A program made the translations under genes and the position numbers. Below the pieces are notes generated by a model. That model was not told the DNA's origin. It saw nothing but the letters and a program-made list of their open reading frames with translations, and did not search any database. Below, in pieces: positions 1,454 through 20,888 of a stretch of DNA of 44,763 nucleotides. How positions within the stretch are numbered: position 1 is the stretch's first letter; each line of letters starts with the position of its first letter. This stretch comes from a virus (Duplodnaviria; Heunggongvirae; Uroviricota; Caudoviricetes): positions 1 through 44,763 of the IMG/VR virus record IMGVR_UViG_3300030310_000017; one strand, written 5' to 3'.

Positions 1454-1636
1454 TTATTTCTGATTAGGCGTAATCAGTTCTGGTGGGGGGAATGCCGATT
1501 TCTCCCGCGTGACCTTAATGTTTTCTGGCAGGTGTAGCCCGAGTTCGCAGCGACTCCGTGCTTCAATAATGCCATTGGTACCATCGGCAAGTACCAGGTG
1601 AACCGCGTCACCACGCTTTAATGTGAGTTTAAGCAT
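1454..1636 (-). CDS. Hypothetical small early protein
   Basis: 60-aa ORF whose start overlaps the stop of the upstream 189-aa gene, an operon-like arrangement. Confidence 0.35.
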   Translation of the reverse strand: MLKLTLKRGDAVHLVLADGTNGIIEARSRCELGLHLPENIKVTREKSAFPPPELITPNQK

Positions 1637-2205
1637 TAGCGTACCCTCAGCGAACGTTCGCCGCGTTCCAGATGTGCGCCTGGTACCGGGTTTAATAACT
1701 CGGCTGGTGGTGTTTCTCCACGCGCCAGTATTTCGGCGGCAACCGCCTCCGCAGATTCAATCACTTCTTTAATGGCTCGCTTGTTTGGTGTAATAACCGT
1801 TTCTACATCAACAAGTGACACGCCTTCATACTCATCCGGGATCTTATCTTTGCTATCGATAATTACCCGGATAGCCCCCTGTGCATCAGTAAATGTGTTT
1901 TTTGCGGTTTTTAGTTTATCCAGGCCAGCAGCTTGCAGGCAGGCGAGCATATGCTTCCGAATTGCTTTTTCCTTGCCTTCAAAGGACGTCTTACGGGTAG
2001 CCAGGCGAGACATTTCTTCAGCGCAGGTACTGGCATTGCCCTGTAAATTACGGCAGATGACCATCATGGCGTCCAGTTTGTCTCCCAGTTCTCCTTCCAT
2101 ACCTTCAAGCGTGTCGGCGATCATCTCTGGCGTCAGTTCGTCGGAGGTTTCTAACAGGTCAATCAGACTGGCATATTCTTTTGCAATAGCGATAGCAGTG
2201 CTCAT
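1636..2205 (-). CDS. Hypothetical early-operon protein, possibly Gp157-like
   Basis: 189-aa acidic ORF directly downstream of, and overlapping (ATGA), the large recombination-like gene. The family label is a recollection, not verified. Confidence 0.4.
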   Translation of the reverse strand: MSTAIAIAKEYASLIDLLETSDELTPEMIADTLEGMEGELGDKLDAMMVICRNLQGNASTCAEEMSRLATRKTSFEGKEKAIRKHMLACLQAAGLDKLKTAKNTFTDAQGAIRVIIDSKDKIPDEYEGVSLVDVETVITPNKRAIKEVIESAEAVAAEILARGETPPAELLNPVPGAHLERGERSLRVR

Positions 2206-4415
2206 GCTGTTTGCTCCTGTGCTGCGGTGAGGGCGGTGAGGCGTTCGGTTTTGATTTCATTCAAACGGCGCAGGCGCGAACCAAGATAAGTTGAATACTC
2301 CTTATCACCTTTGGATTCTGCGGCCTTGCGGTGAACTTCTACTTCCCGCGCAATAAGGCCATAGACTTTATTAACTTCATTGGGGGTTACGGCTGCAGCC
2401 AGTGTTTTGGCAACACCTGAGAGTCGTTCATCCAGTTCTTCACGCAGTCGGGTAGCATCCTCTGCTTTCTCGCTTGCCTTCTTAATACTGTATTCTGTAT
2501 TCAGCTCGGCGGTGTAGGCACTATCGTTATGCATATCCATATAAACATCTGCCGCAAATCCCAGATGAGATAGTGCTTTGACGGTGGCATCAGTAAGAGA
2601 CTTTTTGGAGGCCTCTTTTTCCATTACCAGTGCCCCTTTGTTATTTTTTGATATGTAATCCGTGTGGCCATATGACGGAATAAATCCTTTCACTCCGTTC
2701 CAGATGTACCAGAGATCTATCCGGATGGTGTGTACTGACAGGCAGAACAGGGAACCGTCAGCATCCCTGACAGGTTTTTGTCCAATAATTTTCCCTGTCT
2801 GATCCTGTATAGGTTCAAGTAATGGCACACCGCGATCCACTCGCTCCTCCTTGATTTCAACTCCCCAACCAATGCCTTCCATTCCCAGCACTTCAGTCGC
2901 ACGCATCAAAATATATTGTGCGCGTATGGAGTGCAGTCCTGCACCGTAATCATTATGTGTGACATACGCAGGATCGGTCCGCTGAACGCGATTCCAGATA
3001 GCCAAATTTGCTTTGCTCTGGTCATCATTCATTGCTGACAGATAATGCTCCATGCGAATTGATGCAGTTTTTTCCTCGGCATGGGGCGGCTCAACCAGCG
3101 CGTCAACGTTCTGCACCAGATCCTTTACCTGCTCGCTAAGTTTTTCTTGTGGAGGAGTCTCTTCTGCCGGGGTAATAGCTGCAGGTTCCCTCTGTGAGAC
3201 GGCGTTATTTTCAGGTACGTCATACACATGGCGAGGCGTGATAAACTGCTCACGCAACTGCTGCAAACTACGTTCTCCAGCATTTGCAGCTTCGCTTTTT
3301 TCACCCTGATTTGAGGGTGTTTCTGACATCATCCCATCAATTGAGAATCGCCCGCCGCCGTGGTTGGTGACTTTTACATCATCCTTTGGTGCTGCTTCCT
3401 TTGACTTCTCTTCAACAGCATTTGCATCACGCTGCCCGTTAGCTTGCAGCCAGTTGTCGATGTGACTGCGCAGGGATTGCGGGAAGTGGTACGTGTCTTT
3501 TGCGGGGGCGCTCTGAATAACACCGAATACTGATGCGCGGTCATAGGCAAGGATCTGATCCGTTGTGCGCAAGGCCATTGACCAGCGTTTAAAATCCTCC
3601 CGATCCTGGCTGATTATTTCGTCTGCCGCTTTCAGGGCGCTGGGGGAGATTTTTTCCGGGCCAACGGGTAACAGAGCGCAGGCAATTTCACGATCCAGTG
3701 TAGCGTGAGTCTGTTTGTAAGGACGTGCGGACGGTTTTACCTCCGGCAGCATTTCATCGCGTTTACCGGGATTCTCTACCCATTTTTTTATAAATTTGGA
3801 GATAGTCCAACTGGTCGGGTTTTGTTCCTGGGTATCGCAACTTGCCAAAATTGCATGTACCAGATTATTCAATCCAGCAATATGCATGTACTCGATGGGC
3901 TTACACGCCACCATGGCATCAAGAACGATGCGGTTAAACGCGTCAACCTCATCCTCACTGTCAGTATCACTGTTGTCGAGCATCTCCAGGTATTCACGCG
4001 TCTGCGCAAGCAATTCACTGTCGACTTCGTTGGCGTCGTGGCTGAACAGCAGAACGGCGGCGAATCGTTCACGAGCCGGCAGTTTCATCAGGTCGTTAAC
4101 CTGTGCGATATCTGCTGAACCGCTATCTACAACGGGGGTGTTAACTACCCATTTTTCGCCATCAAAACTGTGTTCTGTGGCGAACGTCTCATCAAACTCA
4201 CCAACGCCTGGGCGCGGTTGGCCCAGGGCATCTTCCCAGATTTTAGGTTTGAAATAGTTGTCGCCGTGGTCAGGGTAGGCTTCCCACAATTTGCCGATGA
4301 TGATGTTCTCGGCAACTTTTTTGTTAGGGGCGTCGATGGCGATGGCCAGCGCCGGGATCGCGCCGTTTTTGAGCGCGCCTTTTTTCGCTTCTAACAAGCC
4401 GTTAAAAATGGTCAT
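2202..4415 (-). CDS. Large early protein with a putative ERF/Rad52-like single-strand-annealing region near the C-terminus
   Basis: 737-aa ORF in the early leftward operon. The C-terminal segment (KALSHLGFAADVYMDMHND) loosely resembles the conserved core of phage ERF-type annealing proteins; the N-terminal ~450 aa are unassigned. The CDS is solid, the function tentative. Confidence 0.5.
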   Translation of the reverse strand: MTIFNGLLEAKKGALKNGAIPALAIAIDAPNKKVAENIIIGKLWEAYPDHGDNYFKPKIWEDALGQPRPGVGEFDETFATEHSFDGEKWVVNTPVVDSGSADIAQVNDLMKLPARERFAAVLLFSHDANEVDSELLAQTREYLEMLDNSDTDSEDEVDAFNRIVLDAMVACKPIEYMHIAGLNNLVHAILASCDTQEQNPTSWTISKFIKKWVENPGKRDEMLPEVKPSARPYKQTHATLDREIACALLPVGPEKISPSALKAADEIISQDREDFKRWSMALRTTDQILAYDRASVFGVIQSAPAKDTYHFPQSLRSHIDNWLQANGQRDANAVEEKSKEAAPKDDVKVTNHGGGRFSIDGMMSETPSNQGEKSEAANAGERSLQQLREQFITPRHVYDVPENNAVSQREPAAITPAEETPPQEKLSEQVKDLVQNVDALVEPPHAEEKTASIRMEHYLSAMNDDQSKANLAIWNRVQRTDPAYVTHNDYGAGLHSIRAQYILMRATEVLGMEGIGWGVEIKEERVDRGVPLLEPIQDQTGKIIGQKPVRDADGSLFCLSVHTIRIDLWYIWNGVKGFIPSYGHTDYISKNNKGALVMEKEASKKSLTDATVKALSHLGFAADVYMDMHNDSAYTAELNTEYSIKKASEKAEDATRLREELDERLSGVAKTLAAAVTPNEVNKVYGLIAREVEVHRKAAESKGDKEYSTYLGSRLRRLNEIKTERLTALTAAQEQTA

Positions 4416-4445
4416 TGGTCTTTCCTCATTACAGGTCAGTGGTCT

Positions 4446-4766
4446 TTAGTAGGGGATTTCATCAGTATCTGGCGTGTATTCGATGCAAAGTAACTGCTGG
4501 ATTTTGTCATCGATAGCAGCAATACGCTGTTGGGCGTCGGCGGCTGTATTCTGTTTTTGCTCACGCAGCTGCTCAACCTGTAAACCGATGATGTCGATTG
4601 GCTGGGGCTGGTTGACGGTAATTTCAATTTCGCGGCTTTCCAGAAGGATGTACCTGTCTGGAAAATTTTTTGACATATCAACTGTCGCAATAAACAGCTT
4701 TTCATGGCTGAAAGTTGAAGTTGCATAATGAATAAAGAGTGTTACTGGGATGGTGCGCGCTTCCAT
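4446..4766 (-). CDS. Hypothetical early protein
   Basis: 106-aa ORF, first gene of the leftward early operon after the ORF-poor leader. Confidence 0.45.
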   Translation of the reverse strand: MEARTIPVTLFIHYATSTFSHEKLFIATVDMSKNFPDRYILLESREIEITVNQPQPIDIIGLQVEQLREQKQNTAADAQQRIAAIDDKIQQLLCIEYTPDTDEIPY

Positions 4767-5194
4767 AGCGACTCCTTGGTGATGTATACTCAGAACCGAT
4801 CAGCGAATATTGATCAGCTTCCATAGCGTCAGTGTCGTTGGTCTTTCCTCATCACAAGTTTGGTCACTTGTGATAAATCCGAATGGTTTGGTCGCCGTTC
4901 GGGGTAACTGGCCCGCCTTGTGCGGGTCTTTTGCTATCTAAAGGGTGCCGGTTACGTTTCCGGCGTCGTCATGTTTCCATCACGACCGTACAGGGCTGGT
5001 CTTTCCTGTTTTGAGCTGGTCAGGCTCATGGTCAACGCTGGTCAGGCGTGGTACTTCCTCCGGTCTTTCCCTGGTTTCACGCTGCGGGTTTGGCCTCTCC
5101 TGTTGGGGACTCAGGCACAGCGATAAAACCTGGCTGTGTGAAAAAATGGCCCATCGTGCGGACTGGGCAAAGACTAAACACAGCAAATTGATGA

Positions 5195-5217
5195 TGGGCG
5201 CCCGGAATCGAACCGGG
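5195..5217 (-). other. tRNA-like T-arm fragment (GGTTCGATTCCGGG followed by CGCCCA); not an intact tRNA
   Basis: The minus strand reads CCCGGTTCGATTCCGGGCGCCCA, a canonical T-stem/loop followed by an acceptor-like 3' tail. No matching 5' acceptor strand or D-arm could be found upstream. Confidence 0.25.
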
Positions 5218-5620
5218 TAACGGGCAGGGAGTTCCCGTTAAACACCTGTTCACCACAACCGGGAGCGCACTCCGCCATTTCAAAATTTAACGACAAAGCT
5301 CAAAGTTGAGTCGATGAAGTGCGCTCTCGTGTTGTAGCCAGGACTCTTCCCTGGTGGTCACACCGTATCGCCTTGATGGTGAATCAATCGCTCATACCTG
5401 GCTGTGGCTTGCACATTCCGGCTACCTGCTATGGAGACAACGCGTTAAGGCTCCGCTTCCATCCAGACCGCTTCGACACATGTGCCATATGCCGGTGAAG
5501 TCTTTCCCTCTGTCACCGTGTTGGCGCCGACGCGCAAAATTTGGTGCCGTCTTTCCGGCTGTCAGAACTTGTTTCTGAACAACTGCCGCTGGGTAAGCGT
5601 TGTTGATGAAAGTGACTTTA

Positions 5621-5670
5621 CAATTTGTATTTGTAATGGTCAATGTGTTTTTAAAAAATAATTTGTAGTG
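5621..5670. promoter_or_regulatory. Putative left operator region with ATTTGTA(A/G)T repeats
   Basis: Three copies of ATTTGTA(A/T/G)T within 50 bp (5623-5629, 5629-5637 and 5661-5669), just downstream of the repressor gene 3' end. The same motif recurs at the divergent promoter region on the other side of the repressor gene. Confidence 0.35.
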
Positions 5671-5761
5671 AGGGACAAAAAAATATTCACTGTGTAAAGG
5701 TGTTTTTGTGTTAGGGGAAAGTTGCATGCCAGCAGCGGCTGGCCTGGAAATTTGAACTGAA

Positions 5762-13545: not shown

Positions 13546-14301
13546 GAATTCCCTTTAGAGTAAGGATTGGTTTTTAAGACGCGGTCTGTAATCAGTTCCG
13601 AAAGCTACAGTAAACAACGCTGAGCACTGAACGCATCACAGGCAAGGTAAAAGGTGATATCGGCAAAGGCTGTGAAACCTTTAATTCAACAGATGGGAAC
13701 GGTATGCACAGGATCCTGTAACGACGCTCCCAAAACCGGAAACCTGCAGGGCATGTTTTCGCTGCTGAACTTAATATACGAACCTGCACTATCATGAACA
13801 TATTTTATATCGTTATACCCCGAGTGATTGTGCCCGGCAATGGATAGTGTCCTGGAGGAATTATTTCTAATGTAAAAGGAAGATATTTAATTTCGATGTG
13901 GGATTATTACCTGTCTATAAGAACAATGACTTTATCTGGCAGTAAGCAGACATCTATTAGCTTACTGAAGGGGGGCTGTGATTTGACCATTAACGGCATG
14001 AGATATATTGTCTATTGGTGATTGTTCTGAGGCCGATATCACGTTAACGACCAAGTAAAATAACATGAAAAATTATTTATTAATGATTGCCAGCATTAAA
14101 TGTAGTGATACCTCATTAGCAGGGTGCTCCGCAATGACTGCGATGAACTAAAAAATCAGTCATAACCATGAAAAAAACAAGTGTATCAGCGAAATTAAAT
14201 CTGGTGAAAGCATTTAATTACTTGTTAATGACGCAATAAAAACATACTATGGAAATGTAACAGCTAATCTACAGTTCTTGTCAATAGGGGCGCACAAGAA
14301 A

Positions 14302-14892
14302 ATGTTAAATGAATTTAAGGAAAAGCTACTATCCGACGATATCCGCGATGTCTACCAACGATACCTTTTAGGACATGACATCTGGTATTTTCGGGAACAA
14401 AAAAAATCAATAACCTTTGCTAAAGATTATGATGAGTTTAAGCTATATATGTCTAAGAAGCTTGAAATTCATGTAAATAATATTGCAATTGTTGGAAGTG
14501 CTAAGATGGGATTCAGCTTGAGCCCTGATAAAAATTATCGAACATTTAACGATGAGTCAGATATAGACTTGGTTTTAGTATCCGACAGAATTTATAAATC
14601 TTCCTGGATGGCATTTATTGAATTACAATCAAAGAATTATTTGCCTGTATATGCTCCTGTAGCTAAAAATATTTTCAAAGGATTCGTGTCATTGAAGGAG
14701 TTAGATATTAGAGTCGATTTTTTTAATAAATGGTCCCGTAACGTTGAACCATTAAAAAAAGACATTCAAACTATTTTTGGAATACCTAACGACATCAACT
14801 ACAGAATTTATGACTCTTGGGAGTCCGTTGAACGCTATCACATAGCTGGGTTGAATAGTCTAAAAGATAAGTTACAAGGACAATTGATATGA
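14302..14892 (+). CDS. Minimal nucleotidyltransferase-fold protein (Pol-beta superfamily; MNT/SMODS-like)
   Basis: Contains a GS...D-x-D signature (IVGSAKMGFSL...DESDIDLVLV). Very AT-rich coding. The stop overlaps the start of the downstream DUF262 gene (ATGA). The track's TTG start at 14278 is an alternative to the ATG at 14302. Confidence 0.55.
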   Translation: MLNEFKEKLLSDDIRDVYQRYLLGHDIWYFREQKKSITFAKDYDEFKLYMSKKLEIHVNNIAIVGSAKMGFSLSPDKNYRTFNDESDIDLVLVSDRIYKSSWMAFIELQSKNYLPVYAPVAKNIFKGFVSLKELDIRVDFFNKWSRNVEPLKKDIQTIFGIPNDINYRIYDSWESVERYHIAGLNSLKDKLQGQLI

Positions 14893-15947
14893 GAGCTATT
14901 GATCTAATTAAAGTTGAATCGAAAGACATTAAATGGTTGACGGATAATTTGAAATCAGGTGTTATTACAGTTGATAATTCATATCAGAGAAAATATATCT
15001 GGCAGCAAAAAGACCAAGTGGCCTTAATTGAGACAATATTAATTGGCTACCCAATCCCTGAGATTTACCTTTGGGCAAATAATACTGATCCTGACACTGG
15101 AGATACTAAATATTCAATTGTAGATGGACAGCAAAGGCTAACCACAATCCAGCGATATTTAAATGATGAGTTTAAGTTAAGCAAAGCAGCTATAGATGAT
15201 AAAGAAGCCGACTATAGTGGGAAAATTTTTTCAGAATTGTCGGCAGATAACAAACGTGATTTTTGGCGATACCAATTCTCATCCAGATTTATTAATGAAT
15301 CATTGAGATATGATGAGATTGCAAAGTTATTTTTACGTCTAAATAGAACAAATACTACGTTAAATCCTCAAGAACTTCGTAATGCTGAATTTAATGGCGA
15401 GTTTTTAAGATTAGCCGAAGAAATTGCACAAAATGAATTTTGGGATAATTATAAGATATTTACTCAGTCAGATATCCGTCGGATGCAAGACATTCAATTC
15501 ATCAGCACATTATTGATTTTCTTACGAATGGGTATTGAGCAGGATAATACACAAAAATCAATTAATCGAGTGTATGATCAATACAATGAGAATTACCCTG
15601 AGGCGACTGAGGACAGAATTGTCTTTAACGAAGTGTTAAGGATCATATCTCAAATTATCAACAATAAACAAGTATTAGAATCAGTTGTAAAGAAAAAAGG
15701 CCATTTGTATTTTATATTTGTGCTGGCATACTATTATTTACAGCTTAGTAAATCTAAGCTTGTTGATATGAATGTTATTAGTTCAAAGCTCGAGGATTTT
15801 TTTAATATTTATGAGTTAAATGAACAAGATAACCCCCATCCACTGGTTGAGGAATATAGATTCCTCAGCCAAGAGGGTTCAAAGAAGAGTCATAACAGAC
15901 AGCGTAGATTTGATATTTTGAAAGAATTTTGCTCTTTACATGATTAA
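14889..15947 (+). CDS. DUF262 (ParB/GmrSD N-terminal-like) domain protein without a recognisable DUF1524/HNH nuclease domain
   Basis: Carries the hallmark motifs QRKYIWQ...LIETILIGYPIPEIYLW...YSIVDGQQRLTT. At 352 aa it ends in a helical extension rather than a nuclease domain. An AAGGA ribosome-binding site is upstream. Confidence 0.75.
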   Translation: MRAIDLIKVESKDIKWLTDNLKSGVITVDNSYQRKYIWQQKDQVALIETILIGYPIPEIYLWANNTDPDTGDTKYSIVDGQQRLTTIQRYLNDEFKLSKAAIDDKEADYSGKIFSELSADNKRDFWRYQFSSRFINESLRYDEIAKLFLRLNRTNTTLNPQELRNAEFNGEFLRLAEEIAQNEFWDNYKIFTQSDIRRMQDIQFISTLLIFLRMGIEQDNTQKSINRVYDQYNENYPEATEDRIVFNEVLRIISQIINNKQVLESVVKKKGHLYFIFVLAYYYLQLSKSKLVDMNVISSKLEDFFNIYELNEQDNPHPLVEEYRFLSQEGSKKSHNRQRRFDILKEFCSLHD

Positions 15948-16201
15948 ATGACGAAAGTGGGTTGTTTATAAGAATTGAATAAACAACCCATCATTTTAAT
16001 GTACTCTGAATCCTCTCATTCTTAGTGAAATATTGTTTTTAGAACACGTATTGACGTTAGAACAAAAAATAGATTTTTTTGTGATGTATTACGTTGGAGT
16101 TGATGGGATAATTATATGTTTTCAATACATTGTTAATTTATCAAGACCCTGCGACTAAGGTGTTCGAAAATCGACTAAAGTCTGTTTCATAGAGAGAGTT
16201 A

Positions 16202-20001: not shown

Positions 20002-20598
20002 ATGGCGCAGCATTCATTTATCAGGGTATCCGGCGGTTCGCTAATACCCGCGACACCAGACACGCAACGCTGGTTGACTGAACGAGTCAAACCAGATGCT
20101 GTTGTGTATGCAGATTTCAAACAGGCGCGTAATCCCGCGTTTCATCGTAAATTTTTCTCACTTCTAAACCTGGGCTTTGATTACTGGCATCCGTCCGGAG
20201 GGGCTATTTCTCCTGCGGAGCGCGAACTGGTCCATGGCTACGTTAAGTTACTGGCGTATTACGGTGGACACGGTGATGTCATGGCAGAGCTGGCTGATCA
20301 GTATCTTCTCGATGAGTCGGAAAAGCGCGCGGGGAATATCAGTGCGGTGAAGTCGTTCGAGGCGTTTCGCGCCTGGGCGATTATGGAAGCTGGGTTTTAT
20401 GACGTTCATCAGATGCCGGATGGCAGTTTGATGCGCGTACCTCGTTCAATCTCGTTTGCTGCGATGGACGATCTTGAGTTCGGTCAACTGTATTCAGCCG
20501 TTTTAGATGTGCTGTGGAATTATATTTTGTTCCGCACGTTTGCCTCTCAGGAGGCCGCTGAAAATGCTGCCGCGCAGCTGCTGGATTACACATCATGA
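20002..20598 (+). CDS. Hypothetical lambdoid nin-region protein (DUF1367-like)
   Basis: 198-aa ORF with a GGAG ribosome-binding site. The family label is a recollection. Confidence 0.45.
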   Translation: MAQHSFIRVSGGSLIPATPDTQRWLTERVKPDAVVYADFKQARNPAFHRKFFSLLNLGFDYWHPSGGAISPAERELVHGYVKLLAYYGGHGDVMAELADQYLLDESEKRAGNISAVKSFEAFRAWAIMEAGFYDVHQMPDGSLMRVPRSISFAAMDDLEFGQLYSAVLDVLWNYILFRTFASQEAAENAAAQLLDYTS

Positions 20599-20888
20599 AA
20601 AAAATCGACCTGAGAAAAGCTGCATGCGGTCGCGCTTGTACTGTGCGTATCCCCTGTGTGTGTAATCACAATCCGGAAACCAGTGTACTGGCTCACTACC
20701 GCCTCGCCGGAACGTGCGGCACAGCCATCAAACCTCACGATATGCAGGGCGCTATCGCCTGCAGTGCGTGTCACGATGCCATCGACGGGCGTACAAAAAC
20801 GGATTACGAGCACGACTCATTGTTGTTGATGCACGCTGAAGGAGTTTTCAGAACACTGGCTATCTGGCGCGATGAGGAGTTTATCTGA
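20595..20888 (+). CDS. Cys-rich small protein (DUF1364-like, possible zinc-binding)
   Basis: 97-aa ORF with several Cys pairs (CGRAC, CVC, CSAC) and ATGA overlap to the upstream gene. Confidence 0.45.
   Translation: MKKIDLRKAACGRACTVRIPCVCNHNPETSVLAHYRLAGTCGTAIKPHDMQGAIACSACHDAIDGRTKTDYEHDSLLLMHAEGVFRTLAIWRDEEFI

What the first reader, a model, noticed from the sequence alone, without database searches (positions are those of the whole stretch)
2202..4415. Unusually large early protein with a possible recombinase core
A 737-aa early-operon protein has only a short C-proximal region resembling ERF-type annealing proteins. The long N-terminal part and an acidic middle are unassigned and may carry additional activities (nuclease, anti-host or helicase-loading). 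It is followed by a 189-aa protein that may be Gp157-like.
Basis: inference. Interest (0 to 1): 0.45.

Follow-up and report, generated by a model that had tools for sequence, protein, structure and literature searches.

The report
Prophage annealase with RecE-type N-terminal module
This large prophage gene, labelled "exonuclease" or "hypothetical" in databases, most likely encodes a Rad52-type DNA-annealing recombinase attached by a floppy linker to the same unexplained N-terminal module found on RecE-type exonucleases, and its annealing core is swapped like a cassette between otherwise near-identical prophages.

Summary
A 737-aa ORF lies at 2202..4415 (minus strand), with a strong ribosome-binding site. 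An ATGA overlap joins it to a 189-aa Sipho_Gp157 gene.

The N-terminal ~330 aa is not a nuclease or helicase loader. It is homologous to the non-catalytic N-terminal region of RecE-family proteins, whose function is unknown. The same module is fused elsewhere to PD-(D/E)XK or DEDD exonuclease domains. A ~120-aa disordered, mildly acidic linker joins the two halves.

The database label "exonuclease" appears to be an annotation-transfer error. Stand-alone ~220-270-aa versions of the annealase in Pseudomonas phages are also followed by a Gp157 gene.

Between E. coli prophages the flanks are 95-100% identical, but the annealase core is only 39% identical. This is an intragenic cassette swap.

It is a new architectural variant of a known kind of protein. 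Interest is moderate.

The parts
2202..4415 (-). Whole gene, 737 aa plus stop: RecE-type N-terminal module, linker, Rad52-like annealase, helical tail
   Evidence: ORF list; full-length match to phrog_2489; full-length homologues in several genera
4420..4427 (-). Shine-Dalgarno sequence GAGGAAAG, 4 nt upstream of the ATG at 4415
   Evidence: Read directly from the sequence
4137..4415 (-). aa 1-93: small alpha/beta head domain of the N-module
3732..4136 (-). aa 94-228: helical subdomain 1 of the N-module, containing an acidic patch at aa 121-180
   Evidence: AF2 model; charge profile; aligns with Gifsy-1 RecE-like aa 166-~270 and with Evi
3417..3731 (-). aa 229-333: helical subdomain 2 ('B'), the most widely shared part, equivalent to about positions 264-370 of the canonical ExoVIII/RecE model. 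Motif TLDxEIAxAL...DREDFKRWSxALR...ILxYxRxxIFG
   Evidence: pLDDT 83-95; NCBIfam PRK09709 positions 264-370, E 1.5e-12; phrog_607 and phrog_2082; 79-sequence alignment across SSAP, PD-(D/E)XK and DEDD fusions
3051..3416 (-). aa 334-455: disordered, mildly acidic, Pro/Glu/Gln-rich linker
   Evidence: pLDDT below 50 for 334-347 and 360-450; net charge -9; poorly conserved among homologues, 16-44%
2526..3050 (-). aa 456-630: Rad52-superfamily single-strand annealing core (beta-hairpin, helix, long beta-sheet, signature helix KKSLTDATVKALSHLGF at aa 604-620)
2205..2525 (-). aa 631-737: tail of three long helices
2481..3080 (-). Mosaic cassette: the segment replaced between E. coli prophage variants. 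It coincides with the annealase core
   Evidence: Nucleotide identity is 35-60% here, against 95-100% on both sides. Amino-acid identity is 39% in the core against 96-98% in the N-module and 98% in Gp157. Core types reassort among genera
1636..2205 (-). Gp157-family gene (189 aa), translationally coupled partner
   Evidence: Pfam PF05565, E 2.5e-28. ATGA overlap. The same pairing is seen in ZF40, BUCT708, PMG1, PseuP_222 and E. coli E05
4446..4766 (-). Conserved upstream 106-aa ORF of unknown function, probably part of the same module
   Evidence: phrog_2479; 39% identical, E 2e-31, to the ORF in the same position in Stenotrophomonas phage BUCT708
1454..1636 (-). Conserved downstream 60-aa ORF of unknown function
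   Evidence: phrog_2482. ORFs of 59-61 aa lie in the same position in BUCT708, ZF40 and E. coli E05; the E05 copy is 97% identical

Best explanation
The gene encodes the annealing recombinase of this lambdoid prophage's early-left recombination module.

Shown by computation:
- The C-terminal core has a Rad52-type annealase fold and carries the family's conserved signature helix.
- The N-terminal ~330 aa is homologous to the non-catalytic N-terminal region of RecE-family proteins, and it is found fused to three unrelated DNA-end-processing domains.
- The two halves are joined by a disordered linker.
- The gene overlaps a Gp157 gene, and this pairing is conserved even when the annealase is a stand-alone ~250-aa protein.

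Inferred mechanism: after induction or infection, the core oligomerises on single-stranded DNA through a basic groove (K604, K605, K613) and anneals it to a complementary strand, at resected ends or at replication forks. The N-module acts in cis as a tethered adaptor that brings whichever effector it carries to a common target, such as DNA ends, a host protein or a phage partner. The helical tail and Gp157 form an accessory pair. No dedicated recombination exonuclease was found in the early-region ORFs scanned, so resection would come from host nucleases. The protein is not an exonuclease.
For: - Viral models: Foldseek hits named SAK3, Rad52/59/22, RAD52-like recombinase, Erf and RecT at probability 0.8-1.0.
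- Sequence: the family profile aligns to RAD52 residues 46-159 with KKSLTDAxxKAL over RKEAVTDGLKRAL, placing K613 over R153. Rad52_Rad22 is the only annealase Pfam family hit, weakly, by 7 of 120 members.
- N-module: BLASTP E 2e-16 to Gifsy-1 RecE-like aa 166-375, a protein with PDDEXK at 773-934 that is followed by RecT. BLASTP E 5e-17 to Evi aa 15-339, a protein with DEDD at 642-816. NCBIfam ExoVIII positions 264-370.
- Architectures among 131 representative clusters: 22 with the annealase, 10 DEDD, 7 PDDEXK.
- Synteny with Gp157.
- PMG1 carries this pair next to its D3-Orf50-like gene. Phage D3's recombination genes there are gp51 Exo and gp52 Erf (PMC12407980).
- Gp157 is a known neighbour of erf and sak4 genes (PMC8093625).
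- No nuclease domain.
Against: - No biochemical or genetic test exists for any member that I could find.
- Sequence-only matches to Rad52 are below significance: PDB profile E about 0.6, and Pfam 17.5 bits against a cut-off of 20.3.
- The adaptor role of the N-module is pure inference. Its model is only moderately confident (pLDDT 69, pTM 0.44) and has no informative structural neighbour.
- The Gam-like role of Gp157 was not supported by a shallow profile comparison with Mu Gam (hhalign probability 0.65%).
- Not every ORF of the prophage was scanned, so an unrecognised exonuclease could exist.
Confidence: 0.72

Rival explanations
1. It is a true member of the ERF family (P22 Erf-like) carrying an unrelated N-terminal extension.
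For: Erf-named viral models are among the Foldseek hits (E 6.8e-4 and 1.1e-2, probability 1.0). Erf belongs to the same Rad52 superfamily (PMC2896510, PMC11783212). Erf genes are often next to Gp157 genes in Firmicutes phages (PMC8093625).
Against: No Pfam ERF hit in any of 120 family members, even at E <= 1. No PHROG family annotated as an annealase matched, even at E <= 1. Sak3 and Rad52-named models score 30-fold or more better than Erf. The best solved-structure matches are RAD52 and Mgm101.
Confidence: 0.08
2. It is an exonuclease of the RecE/ExoVIII kind, as RefSeq ('exonuclease family protein', 'phage-associated endonuclease') and PHROGs label it.
For: phrog_2489 and phrog_7838 carry the label 'exonuclease'. 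ZF40 gp07 is annotated 'putative exonuclease'. There is real homology to RecE-like proteins.
Against: The homology is confined to the RecE N-terminal region, outside the nuclease domain (residues 564-866 in RecE; PMC11611040): Gifsy-1 aa 166-375 of 961, with PDDEXK at 773-934. No PD-(D/E)XK, DEDD or other nuclease domain was found by Pfam, PDB sequence search or fold search. The stand-alone ~220-270-aa proteins labelled 'exonuclease' have the Rad52 fold.
Confidence: 0.03
3. The Rad52-like domain has been repurposed. The protein's main role is not recombination but protecting or hiding phage DNA ends or ssDNA from host systems (anti-RecBCD or anti-defence), or helping replication start, with the N-module providing the key activity.
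For: No cognate exonuclease is in the module. The annealase core is exchanged as a cassette between near-identical prophages, as might be expected for a target of host defences. Phage end-binding and annealing proteins are known to determine sensitivity to Gabija and AbiK-type systems (PMC12407980, PMC2896510, PMC8093625). The N-module travels with three different end-processing domains.
Against: The ssDNA-groove signature is strictly conserved in both core types, as expected for a working annealase. The module sits where lambda-like phages carry Red or RecET functions. No match to defence models.
Confidence: 0.12
4. The N-terminal part carries an enzymatic activity of its own (nuclease, helicase loader).
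For: It is large (~330 folded residues) and conserved. Its function is unknown even in RecE (PMC11611040).
Confidence: 0.07

Closest known systems
Eukaryotic RAD52 N-terminal domain and yeast Mgm101 (Rad52-type annealases)
   Different: 15-17% sequence identity. Below the Pfam Rad52_Rad22 cut-off. Bacterial prophage context. Carries a 455-aa N-terminal extension and a three-helix tail. Oligomeric state unknown.
Phage Rad52-like annealases: Sak/Sak3, 'RAD52-like DNA recombinase', and P22 Erf
   Same: Rad52-superfamily fold. Temperate-phage early region. Association with Gp157, Gam or DUF1351-type neighbours (PMC8093625). Often no adjacent exonuclease.
   Different: A separate sequence family (phrog_7838, phrog_2489) with no Pfam annealase hit. 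Here it is fused to a RecE-type N-terminal module.
RecE / exodeoxyribonuclease VIII of Rac and Gifsy-type prophages
   Same: Homologous N-terminal region (about RecE model positions 264-370, and more in some relatives). Same genomic position in lambdoid prophages. Long low-complexity linker before the C-terminal effector domain.
   Different: RecE ends in a PD-(D/E)XK 5'-3' exonuclease and pairs with RecT. This protein ends in an annealase and pairs with Gp157. The Pfam Exonuc_VIII head (PF06630) is absent here.
CP-933P / phage Evi 'exodeoxyribonuclease' (N-module plus DEDD Rv2179c-like domain)
   Same: Shares almost the whole N-module: aa 14-327 aligns to Evi 15-339, E 5e-17.
   Different: The C-terminal domain is a DEDD 3'-5' exonuclease (PF16473, E 7e-69), not an annealase.
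Lambda Red (Exo-Beta-Gam) and RecET modules
   Same: Same place and presumed role in the early-left operon. The annealase has a separate helical C-terminal region; in Red-beta that region binds the partner protein (PMC11611040).
   Different: No exonuclease gene. The annealase is on the Rad52/Sak side of the superfamily rather than the Red-beta/RecT side (RecT-named model only E 8e-3). The accessory gene is Gp157, not lambda Gam.

Membership tests
Rad52 superfamily of single-strand annealing proteins | Core fold: beta-hairpin plus beta-sheet bridged by an alpha-helix | tested here: met
Rad52 superfamily of single-strand annealing proteins | Conserved basic residues lining the ssDNA groove (RAD52 K152/R153/R156 region) | tested here: inconclusive
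   Invariant K604 and K613 and near-invariant K605. K613 aligns with RAD52 R153 and T608/D609 with T148/D149 in the profile alignment. That alignment is itself not significant (E about 0.6), and no superposition on DNA-bound structures was possible.
Rad52 superfamily of single-strand annealing proteins | Ring or filament oligomerisation and ssDNA annealing activity | not testable with these tools
   Needs biochemistry, or at least multimer modelling.
Pfam Rad52_Rad22 (PF04098) | Score above the curated gathering threshold | tested here: not met
   The window protein has no hit. 7 of 120 family members hit at best E 5e-4. VvAW1 gp29 scores 17.5 bits against a cut-off of 20.3.
ERF family (PF04404; P22 Erf) | Match to the ERF profile, or closest structural neighbours being Erf proteins | tested here: not met
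   ERF was not among the listed Pfam families hit by the 120 members at E <= 1. Erf-named models rank below Sak3 and Rad52-named ones (E 6.8e-4 against about 2e-5).
RecT/Red-beta family | Match to RecT or Red-beta profiles or structures | tested here: not met
RecE / exodeoxyribonuclease VIII | C-terminal PD-(D/E)XK nuclease domain | tested here: not met
   No DUF3799 or PDDEXK hit in Pfam. NCBIfam ExoVIII scores 46.5 bits against a cut-off of 1269 and covers model positions 264-370 only. The C-terminal fold is Rad52-like.
RecE / exodeoxyribonuclease VIII | N-terminal region of unknown function | tested here: met
   BLASTP E 2e-16 to Gifsy-1 RecE-like aa 166-375. phrog_607 and phrog_2082. Motif conserved across 79 sequences.
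Sipho_Gp157 (the downstream 189-aa gene) | Pfam PF05565 above the gathering threshold | tested here: met
   99.5 bits against a cut-off of 28.6, E 2.5e-28.
Mu Gam / Ku-like end-binding proteins (the PHROG label of the 189-aa gene) | Detectable homology to Mu Gam | tested here: inconclusive
   hhalign of a 6-sequence Gp157 profile (Neff 2.1) against Mu gp10 gave probability 0.65%. No PDB sequence match. The profile is shallow and no structure model was made.

The most novel reading that the evidence does not exclude
The ~330-aa N-terminal module is a portable, cis-acting adaptor that lambdoid prophages attach, through a disordered linker, to whichever DNA-end-processing enzyme they carry: a RecE-type 5'-3' exonuclease, a DEDD 3'-5' exonuclease, or this Rad52-type annealase. 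It would deliver the enzyme to one common target, such as DNA ends, the replisome or a host repair complex. This would explain why full-length RecE outperforms its nuclease domain in linear-linear recombination. Separately, the annealase core would be exchanged as a cassette because it is what host abortive-infection or Gabija-like defences detect.
Probability: 0.3. Interest if true: 0.65.

Novelty: new variant of a known kind. Interest (0 to 1): 0.5.

Why it matters
1. Annotation. A widespread prophage gene family is labelled 'hypothetical' or 'exonuclease' when the evidence points to an annealase. It is present in about 8% of complete E. coli genomes and is abundant in Salmonella and Klebsiella. 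Its stand-alone relatives in Pseudomonas, Vibrio and marine phages have the same problem.

2. The RecE N-terminal question. The function of the RecE N-terminal domain is still listed as unknown, although it improves linear-linear recombineering. Natural fusions of the same module to three unrelated effector domains are a concrete, testable hint that it is an adaptor rather than part of the nuclease.

3. Recombineering tools. This is a candidate exonuclease-independent Rad52-type recombineering protein native to Enterobacteriaceae.

4. Phage evolution. The precise intragenic swap of the annealase core is a clean example of domain-level phage mosaicism. It may reflect pressure from defence systems that sense phage recombinases.

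Tried and rejected
- Pfam, NCBIfam and PDB sequence searches of the whole protein gave nothing useful apart from a sub-threshold ExoVIII hit.
- Megablast against the phage collection found nothing.
- A word-indexed search with the C-terminal domain alone found only 15 proteins. The profile search was needed.
- The profile against PDB sequences gave RAD52 only at E about 0.6.
- An apparent N-module plus RecT fusion (P0356) matches only the C-terminal half of RecT. I treated it as a probable recE-recT deletion or assembly artefact.
- I looked for an internal translation start that would give a stand-alone annealase. There is no convincing ribosome-binding site before M455 or M462.
- The Gam-likeness of Gp157 was not supported.
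- PADLOC gave no defence-system match for the module.
- Weak DUF2922 and DUF7818 Pfam hits in 25-31 family members (E about 0.006) were left unexplained.
- Literature searches found no description of this fusion. One 2026 paper on truncated RecE was not used because its residue numbering is ambiguous.
- PF27430 and PF27432, precomputed on homologues, are newer than the local Pfam copy and could not be looked up.
Full report
**1. Observation**

The ORF exists exactly as described: window 2202..4415 on the minus strand, ATG start, 737 aa.
- A Shine-Dalgarno sequence, GAGGAAAG, lies 4 nt upstream of the ATG.
- The stop codon overlaps the start of the next gene as ATGA, with GGAG upstream, which suggests translational coupling.
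- The next gene (1636..2205, 189 aa) is a clear Sipho_Gp157 member: Pfam E 2.5e-28, 99.5 bits against a cut-off of 28.6.
- The window is a lambdoid E. coli prophage. On the minus strand it carries int, a DUF4224 excisionase, a 60-aa ORF, Gp157, the 737-aa gene, a 106-aa ORF, an ORF-poor gap of about 1 kb, and a repressor. On the plus strand it carries cro-like, cII-like, replication initiator and DnaB genes, then NinB/Orf, a Q-like gene, lysis genes and structural genes.

So 'early-operon protein' fits the layout.

**2. The gene is real and widespread**

Full-length homologues of 700-760 aa are abundant in Salmonella, Klebsiella, Raoultella and E. coli prophages. They also occur in Pectobacterium phage ZF40 (34% identity) and Stenotrophomonas phage BUCT708 (45%). 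455 of 5,426 complete E. coli genomes hold a near-identical stretch of the gene. Public labels are 'hypothetical protein', 'exonuclease family protein', 'phage-associated endonuclease' or 'putative exonuclease'. PHROGs has a full-length family, phrog_2489, labelled 'exonuclease'. The local Pfam copy, NCBIfam (above threshold) and the PDB sequence set give nothing for the whole protein.

**3. The C-terminal part is a Rad52-type annealase**

*Stand-alone relatives.* Residues ~470-722 match stand-alone proteins of about 220-270 aa in Pseudomonas, Vibrio, Sulfitobacter, Acinetobacter and other phages. None of these or their metagenomic relatives has a Pfam domain on record.

*Conserved signature.* Their alignment has a strongly conserved block, KKSLTDAxKKALSxLGFSADVFLG. 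The invariant residues, in full-length numbering, are W569, G583, T585, K604, S606, T608, D609, A610, K613 and G619.

*Structure.* With a 120-sequence alignment, AlphaFold2 gives a very confident model (mean pLDDT 93.9, pTM 0.78). It consists of a beta-hairpin, a helix, a long twisted beta-sheet and the signature helix, followed by three long helices.

*Comparison with viral models.* Foldseek against viral predicted structures finds the protein's own unnamed family first. The named hits then follow in this order:

| Named hit | E-value |
|---|---|
| 'DNA repair protein' | 2e-10 |
| SAK3 | 1.9e-5 |
| Rad52/59/22 | 2.5e-5 |
| RAD52-like recombinase | 5.8e-5 |
| Erf | 6.8e-4 |
| RecT | 8e-3 |

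*Sequence evidence.* On sequence alone the evidence is weak but consistent.
- The family profile aligns to RAD52 residues 46-159 at E about 0.6. The signature helices are in register, with K613 over R153 and T608/D609 over T148/D149.
- Rad52_Rad22 is the only annealase Pfam family hit by any of the 120 members: 7 members, best E 5e-4, below the cut-off.
- ERF, RecT and Sak/DUF1071 models do not appear among the listed hits, and no PHROG family annotated as an annealase matched.

*Conclusion.* The 'recombinase core' is real. It belongs to the Rad52 superfamily and is nearer to Rad52/Sak3 than to ERF. Some depositors have already reached a similar view for stand-alone members, for example 'RAD52-like annealing protein' in phage PseuP_222. 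Unannotated Rad52-fold proteins are known to be numerous (PMC11783212).

**4. The N-terminal part is the RecE N-terminal module, not an enzyme**

*What it matches.* The first 450 aa match only proteins annotated RecE or exodeoxyribonuclease VIII in lambdoid phages. The match lies outside their catalytic domains.
- In Gifsy-1 STM2632 (961 aa, followed by RecT) it is aa 166-375, while the PD-(D/E)XK domain is at 773-934.
- In phage Evi/CP-933P (826 aa) it is aa 15-339, and the C-terminus is a DEDD Rv2179c-like exonuclease.
- Against the NCBIfam ExoVIII model it is positions 264-370 of 877.

*How widespread it is.* An exhaustive HMMER search of 1.84 billion representative proteins with aa 1-340 found only 131 clusters. 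Among those of 400 aa or more, 22 end in the annealase domain, 10 in DEDD and 7 in RecE-type PD-(D/E)XK. Three more carry DUF3799 by Pfam. The rest are unassigned or truncated.

*Structure.* AlphaFold2 (pLDDT 69) divides the region into four parts:
- a small alpha/beta head (aa 1-93);
- a helical domain (aa ~103-224);
- a confidently predicted helical domain (aa 229-333, pLDDT 83-95);
- a disordered linker (aa 334-450).

*Conserved residues.* Across 79 sequences from all fusion types the conserved positions are mostly hydrophobic plus Arg, Trp, Ser and Thr, forming the motif TLDxEIAxAL...DREDFKRWSxALR...ILxYxRxxIFG. There is no catalytic-type signature.

*Conclusion.* A nuclease or helicase-loader activity is not supported. 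A binding or adaptor role is the most economical inference, but it is only an inference.

**5. The 'acidic middle'**

The linker (aa 334-455) has 19% D+E, net charge -9, and is rich in Pro, Glu and Gln. A second acidic stretch lies in the helical domain (aa 121-180, net -12). The whole protein has net charge -30. The linker is the least conserved segment.

**6. Module context**

- The gene carrying the annealase domain is immediately followed by an overlapping Gp157-family gene in ZF40, BUCT708, PseuP_222, PMG1 and E. coli E05, whether or not the N-module is present. In Vibrio phage VvAW1 and Sulfitobacter phage pCB2047-A the downstream gene is annotated only as hypothetical and was not examined.
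- The upstream 106-aa ORF is conserved in BUCT708 (39% identity, E 2e-31). A small ORF of about 60 aa is conserved downstream.
- In PMG1 the pair lies next to the gene similar to D3 Orf50. In phage D3 the recombination genes are gp51 (Exo) and gp52 (Erf) (PMC12407980). This looks like a natural module replacement.
- In Firmicutes phages, sipho_gp157, Mu Gam homologues, DUF1351 and DUF2483 occupy equivalent positions beside erf or sak4 (PMC8093625).
- I could not confirm that Gp157 is Gam-like: hhalign probability is 0.65% with a shallow profile.
- No lambda Exo, RecE or YqaJ-type exonuclease appeared among the early-region ORFs scanned. A NinB/Orf mediator is present at 20002..20598.

**7. An intragenic cassette swap**

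In about 444 of the 455 E. coli genomes, the near-identical match covers only nt 1-1343 of the gene. The gene there has the same architecture (738 aa plus Gp157).

Nucleotide identity to that variant, by window coordinate:

| Window coordinates | Segment | Nucleotide identity |
|---|---|---|
| down to ~3081 | upstream ORF, N-module, most of linker | mostly 95% or more |
| 3080..2481 | aa ~446-645, annealase core | 35-60% |
| 2480..2241 | helical tail | 70-78% |
| from ~2240 | gene end, Gp157, 60-aa ORF | 95-100% |

Amino-acid identity to the same variant:

| Segment | Identity |
|---|---|
| N-module | 96-98% |
| Linker | 89% |
| Annealase core | 39% |
| Tail | 75% |
| Gp157 | 98% |

- Both core types fit the family profile equally well (E 8e-74 and 8e-78) and keep the signature.
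- The window's core is about 80% identical to that of Klebsiella and Raoultella proteins, whose N-modules are only 42-72% identical to the window's.
- E. coli and Salmonella proteins with N-modules 85-98% identical have cores at 37-41%.

So at least two core types reassort independently of the N-module. The tail end and Gp157 travel together. Why the core is exchanged is unknown. Pressure from defence systems that respond to phage annealases or end-binding proteins is a reasonable speculation (PMC8093625, PMC12407980).

**8. Mechanism**

*Shown:* the fold, the domain layout, the synteny and the mosaic structure.

*Inferred:*
- The core oligomerises, binds ssDNA in a basic groove (K604, K605, K613) and anneals complementary strands.
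- The linker-tethered N-module targets the effector to a common site or partner.
- The tail and Gp157 act as an accessory pair, by analogy with the Red-beta C-terminal domain, which binds its partner (PMC11611040).
- Resection is supplied by host nucleases.

Confidence in the identity (a Rad52-type annealase carrying a RecE-type N-module, not an exonuclease) is about 0.7-0.75. Confidence in the adaptor role is much lower.

**9. Novelty and verdict**

The kind of protein is known. New, as far as the searchable literature shows, are three things:
- the fusion of the RecE N-terminal module to an annealase;
- the recognition that this module is shared by three effector types;
- the precise swap of the annealase core.

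A newer Pfam family (PF27430) already covers part of these proteins, so curators have seen the family even if its function is unassigned.

I rate it a new variant of a known kind, with moderate interest (0.5). It corrects a widespread mis-annotation and makes the open question of the RecE N-terminal domain more testable, but it does not reveal a new kind of system.

Noticed in passing
window 3898..3929 (protospacer), PAM at 3895..3897; locus L010 1201..1234: E. coli NCTC9112 carries a type I-E CRISPR spacer (next to cas2e and cas1e) that matches 32 nt inside the N-module coding region exactly. On the spacer-sense strand the protospacer is preceded by ATG, a canonical I-E PAM.
   Followed up: yes
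window ~14000..16000; ORFs 14278..14892 (+) and 14889..15947 (+): A low-GC island (GC 0.33 against about 0.50) lies between the replication genes and ninB. Its 352-aa ORF matches the PADLOC defence models NsnA (E 4.6e-41) and PD-T4-2_A (E 1.9e-19). It is probably a prophage-borne anti-phage defence gene.
   Followed up: partly
window 4767..5761, especially 5139..5249 (-): A stretch of about 1 kb between the 106-aa ORF and the repressor has no convincing ORF. It is also left unannotated in the E. coli E05 RefSeq record. It contains a weak, full-length match to the RprA sRNA model (37.4 bits against a gathering score of 70, E 0.077). It may hold the leftward early promoter, an sRNA or nothing.
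   Followed up: no
loci L003:3489-4235, L004:3489-4235, L007:2498-3319, L008:2504-3163; phrog_7838: Stand-alone proteins of about 220-270 aa in this family are annotated 'exonuclease' or 'exodeoxyribonuclease VIII' in PHROGs and in many phage records (over 100 Vibrio phage records match the domain, and all sampled ones carry that label), although they consist only of the Rad52-like domain plus tail. This is probably a label propagated from the fused proteins.
   Followed up: partly
protein P0356 (756 aa): One representative joins the RecE-type N-module to the C-terminal half of RecT (Gifsy-1 RecT residues 162-368). It is probably a recE-recT deletion fusion or an assembly artefact rather than a fourth architecture.
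   Followed up: partly
locus L004 (Pseudomonas phage PMG1) 3489..4729: In this D3 relative, the annealase plus Gp157 pair lies next to the gene similar to D3 Orf50. In D3 the recombination genes are gp51 Exo and gp52 Erf, which license Gabija targeting (PMC12407980). This is an apparent natural replacement of one recombination module by another.
   Followed up: partly
window 20002..20598 (+) and 20595..20888 (+): The prophage also encodes a NinB/Orf-type recombination mediator (E 4e-68), followed by an HNH endonuclease-like ORF. Together these form a second, separate recombination-related locus.
   Followed up: no
alignment A2 (120 family members): 25-31 members give weak Pfam hits (E about 0.006) to DUF2922 and DUF7818. 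That is more members than hit Rad52_Rad22. I did not check which region matches or whether it means anything.
   Followed up: no
proteins P0001-P0120, P0138, P0140: Homologues carry precomputed Pfam families PF27430.1 and, in one case, PF27432.1. These are absent from the local Pfam copy. C-terminal-only fragments lack them, so they probably describe the N-terminal or middle region. Their names and descriptions could not be looked up.
   Followed up: no
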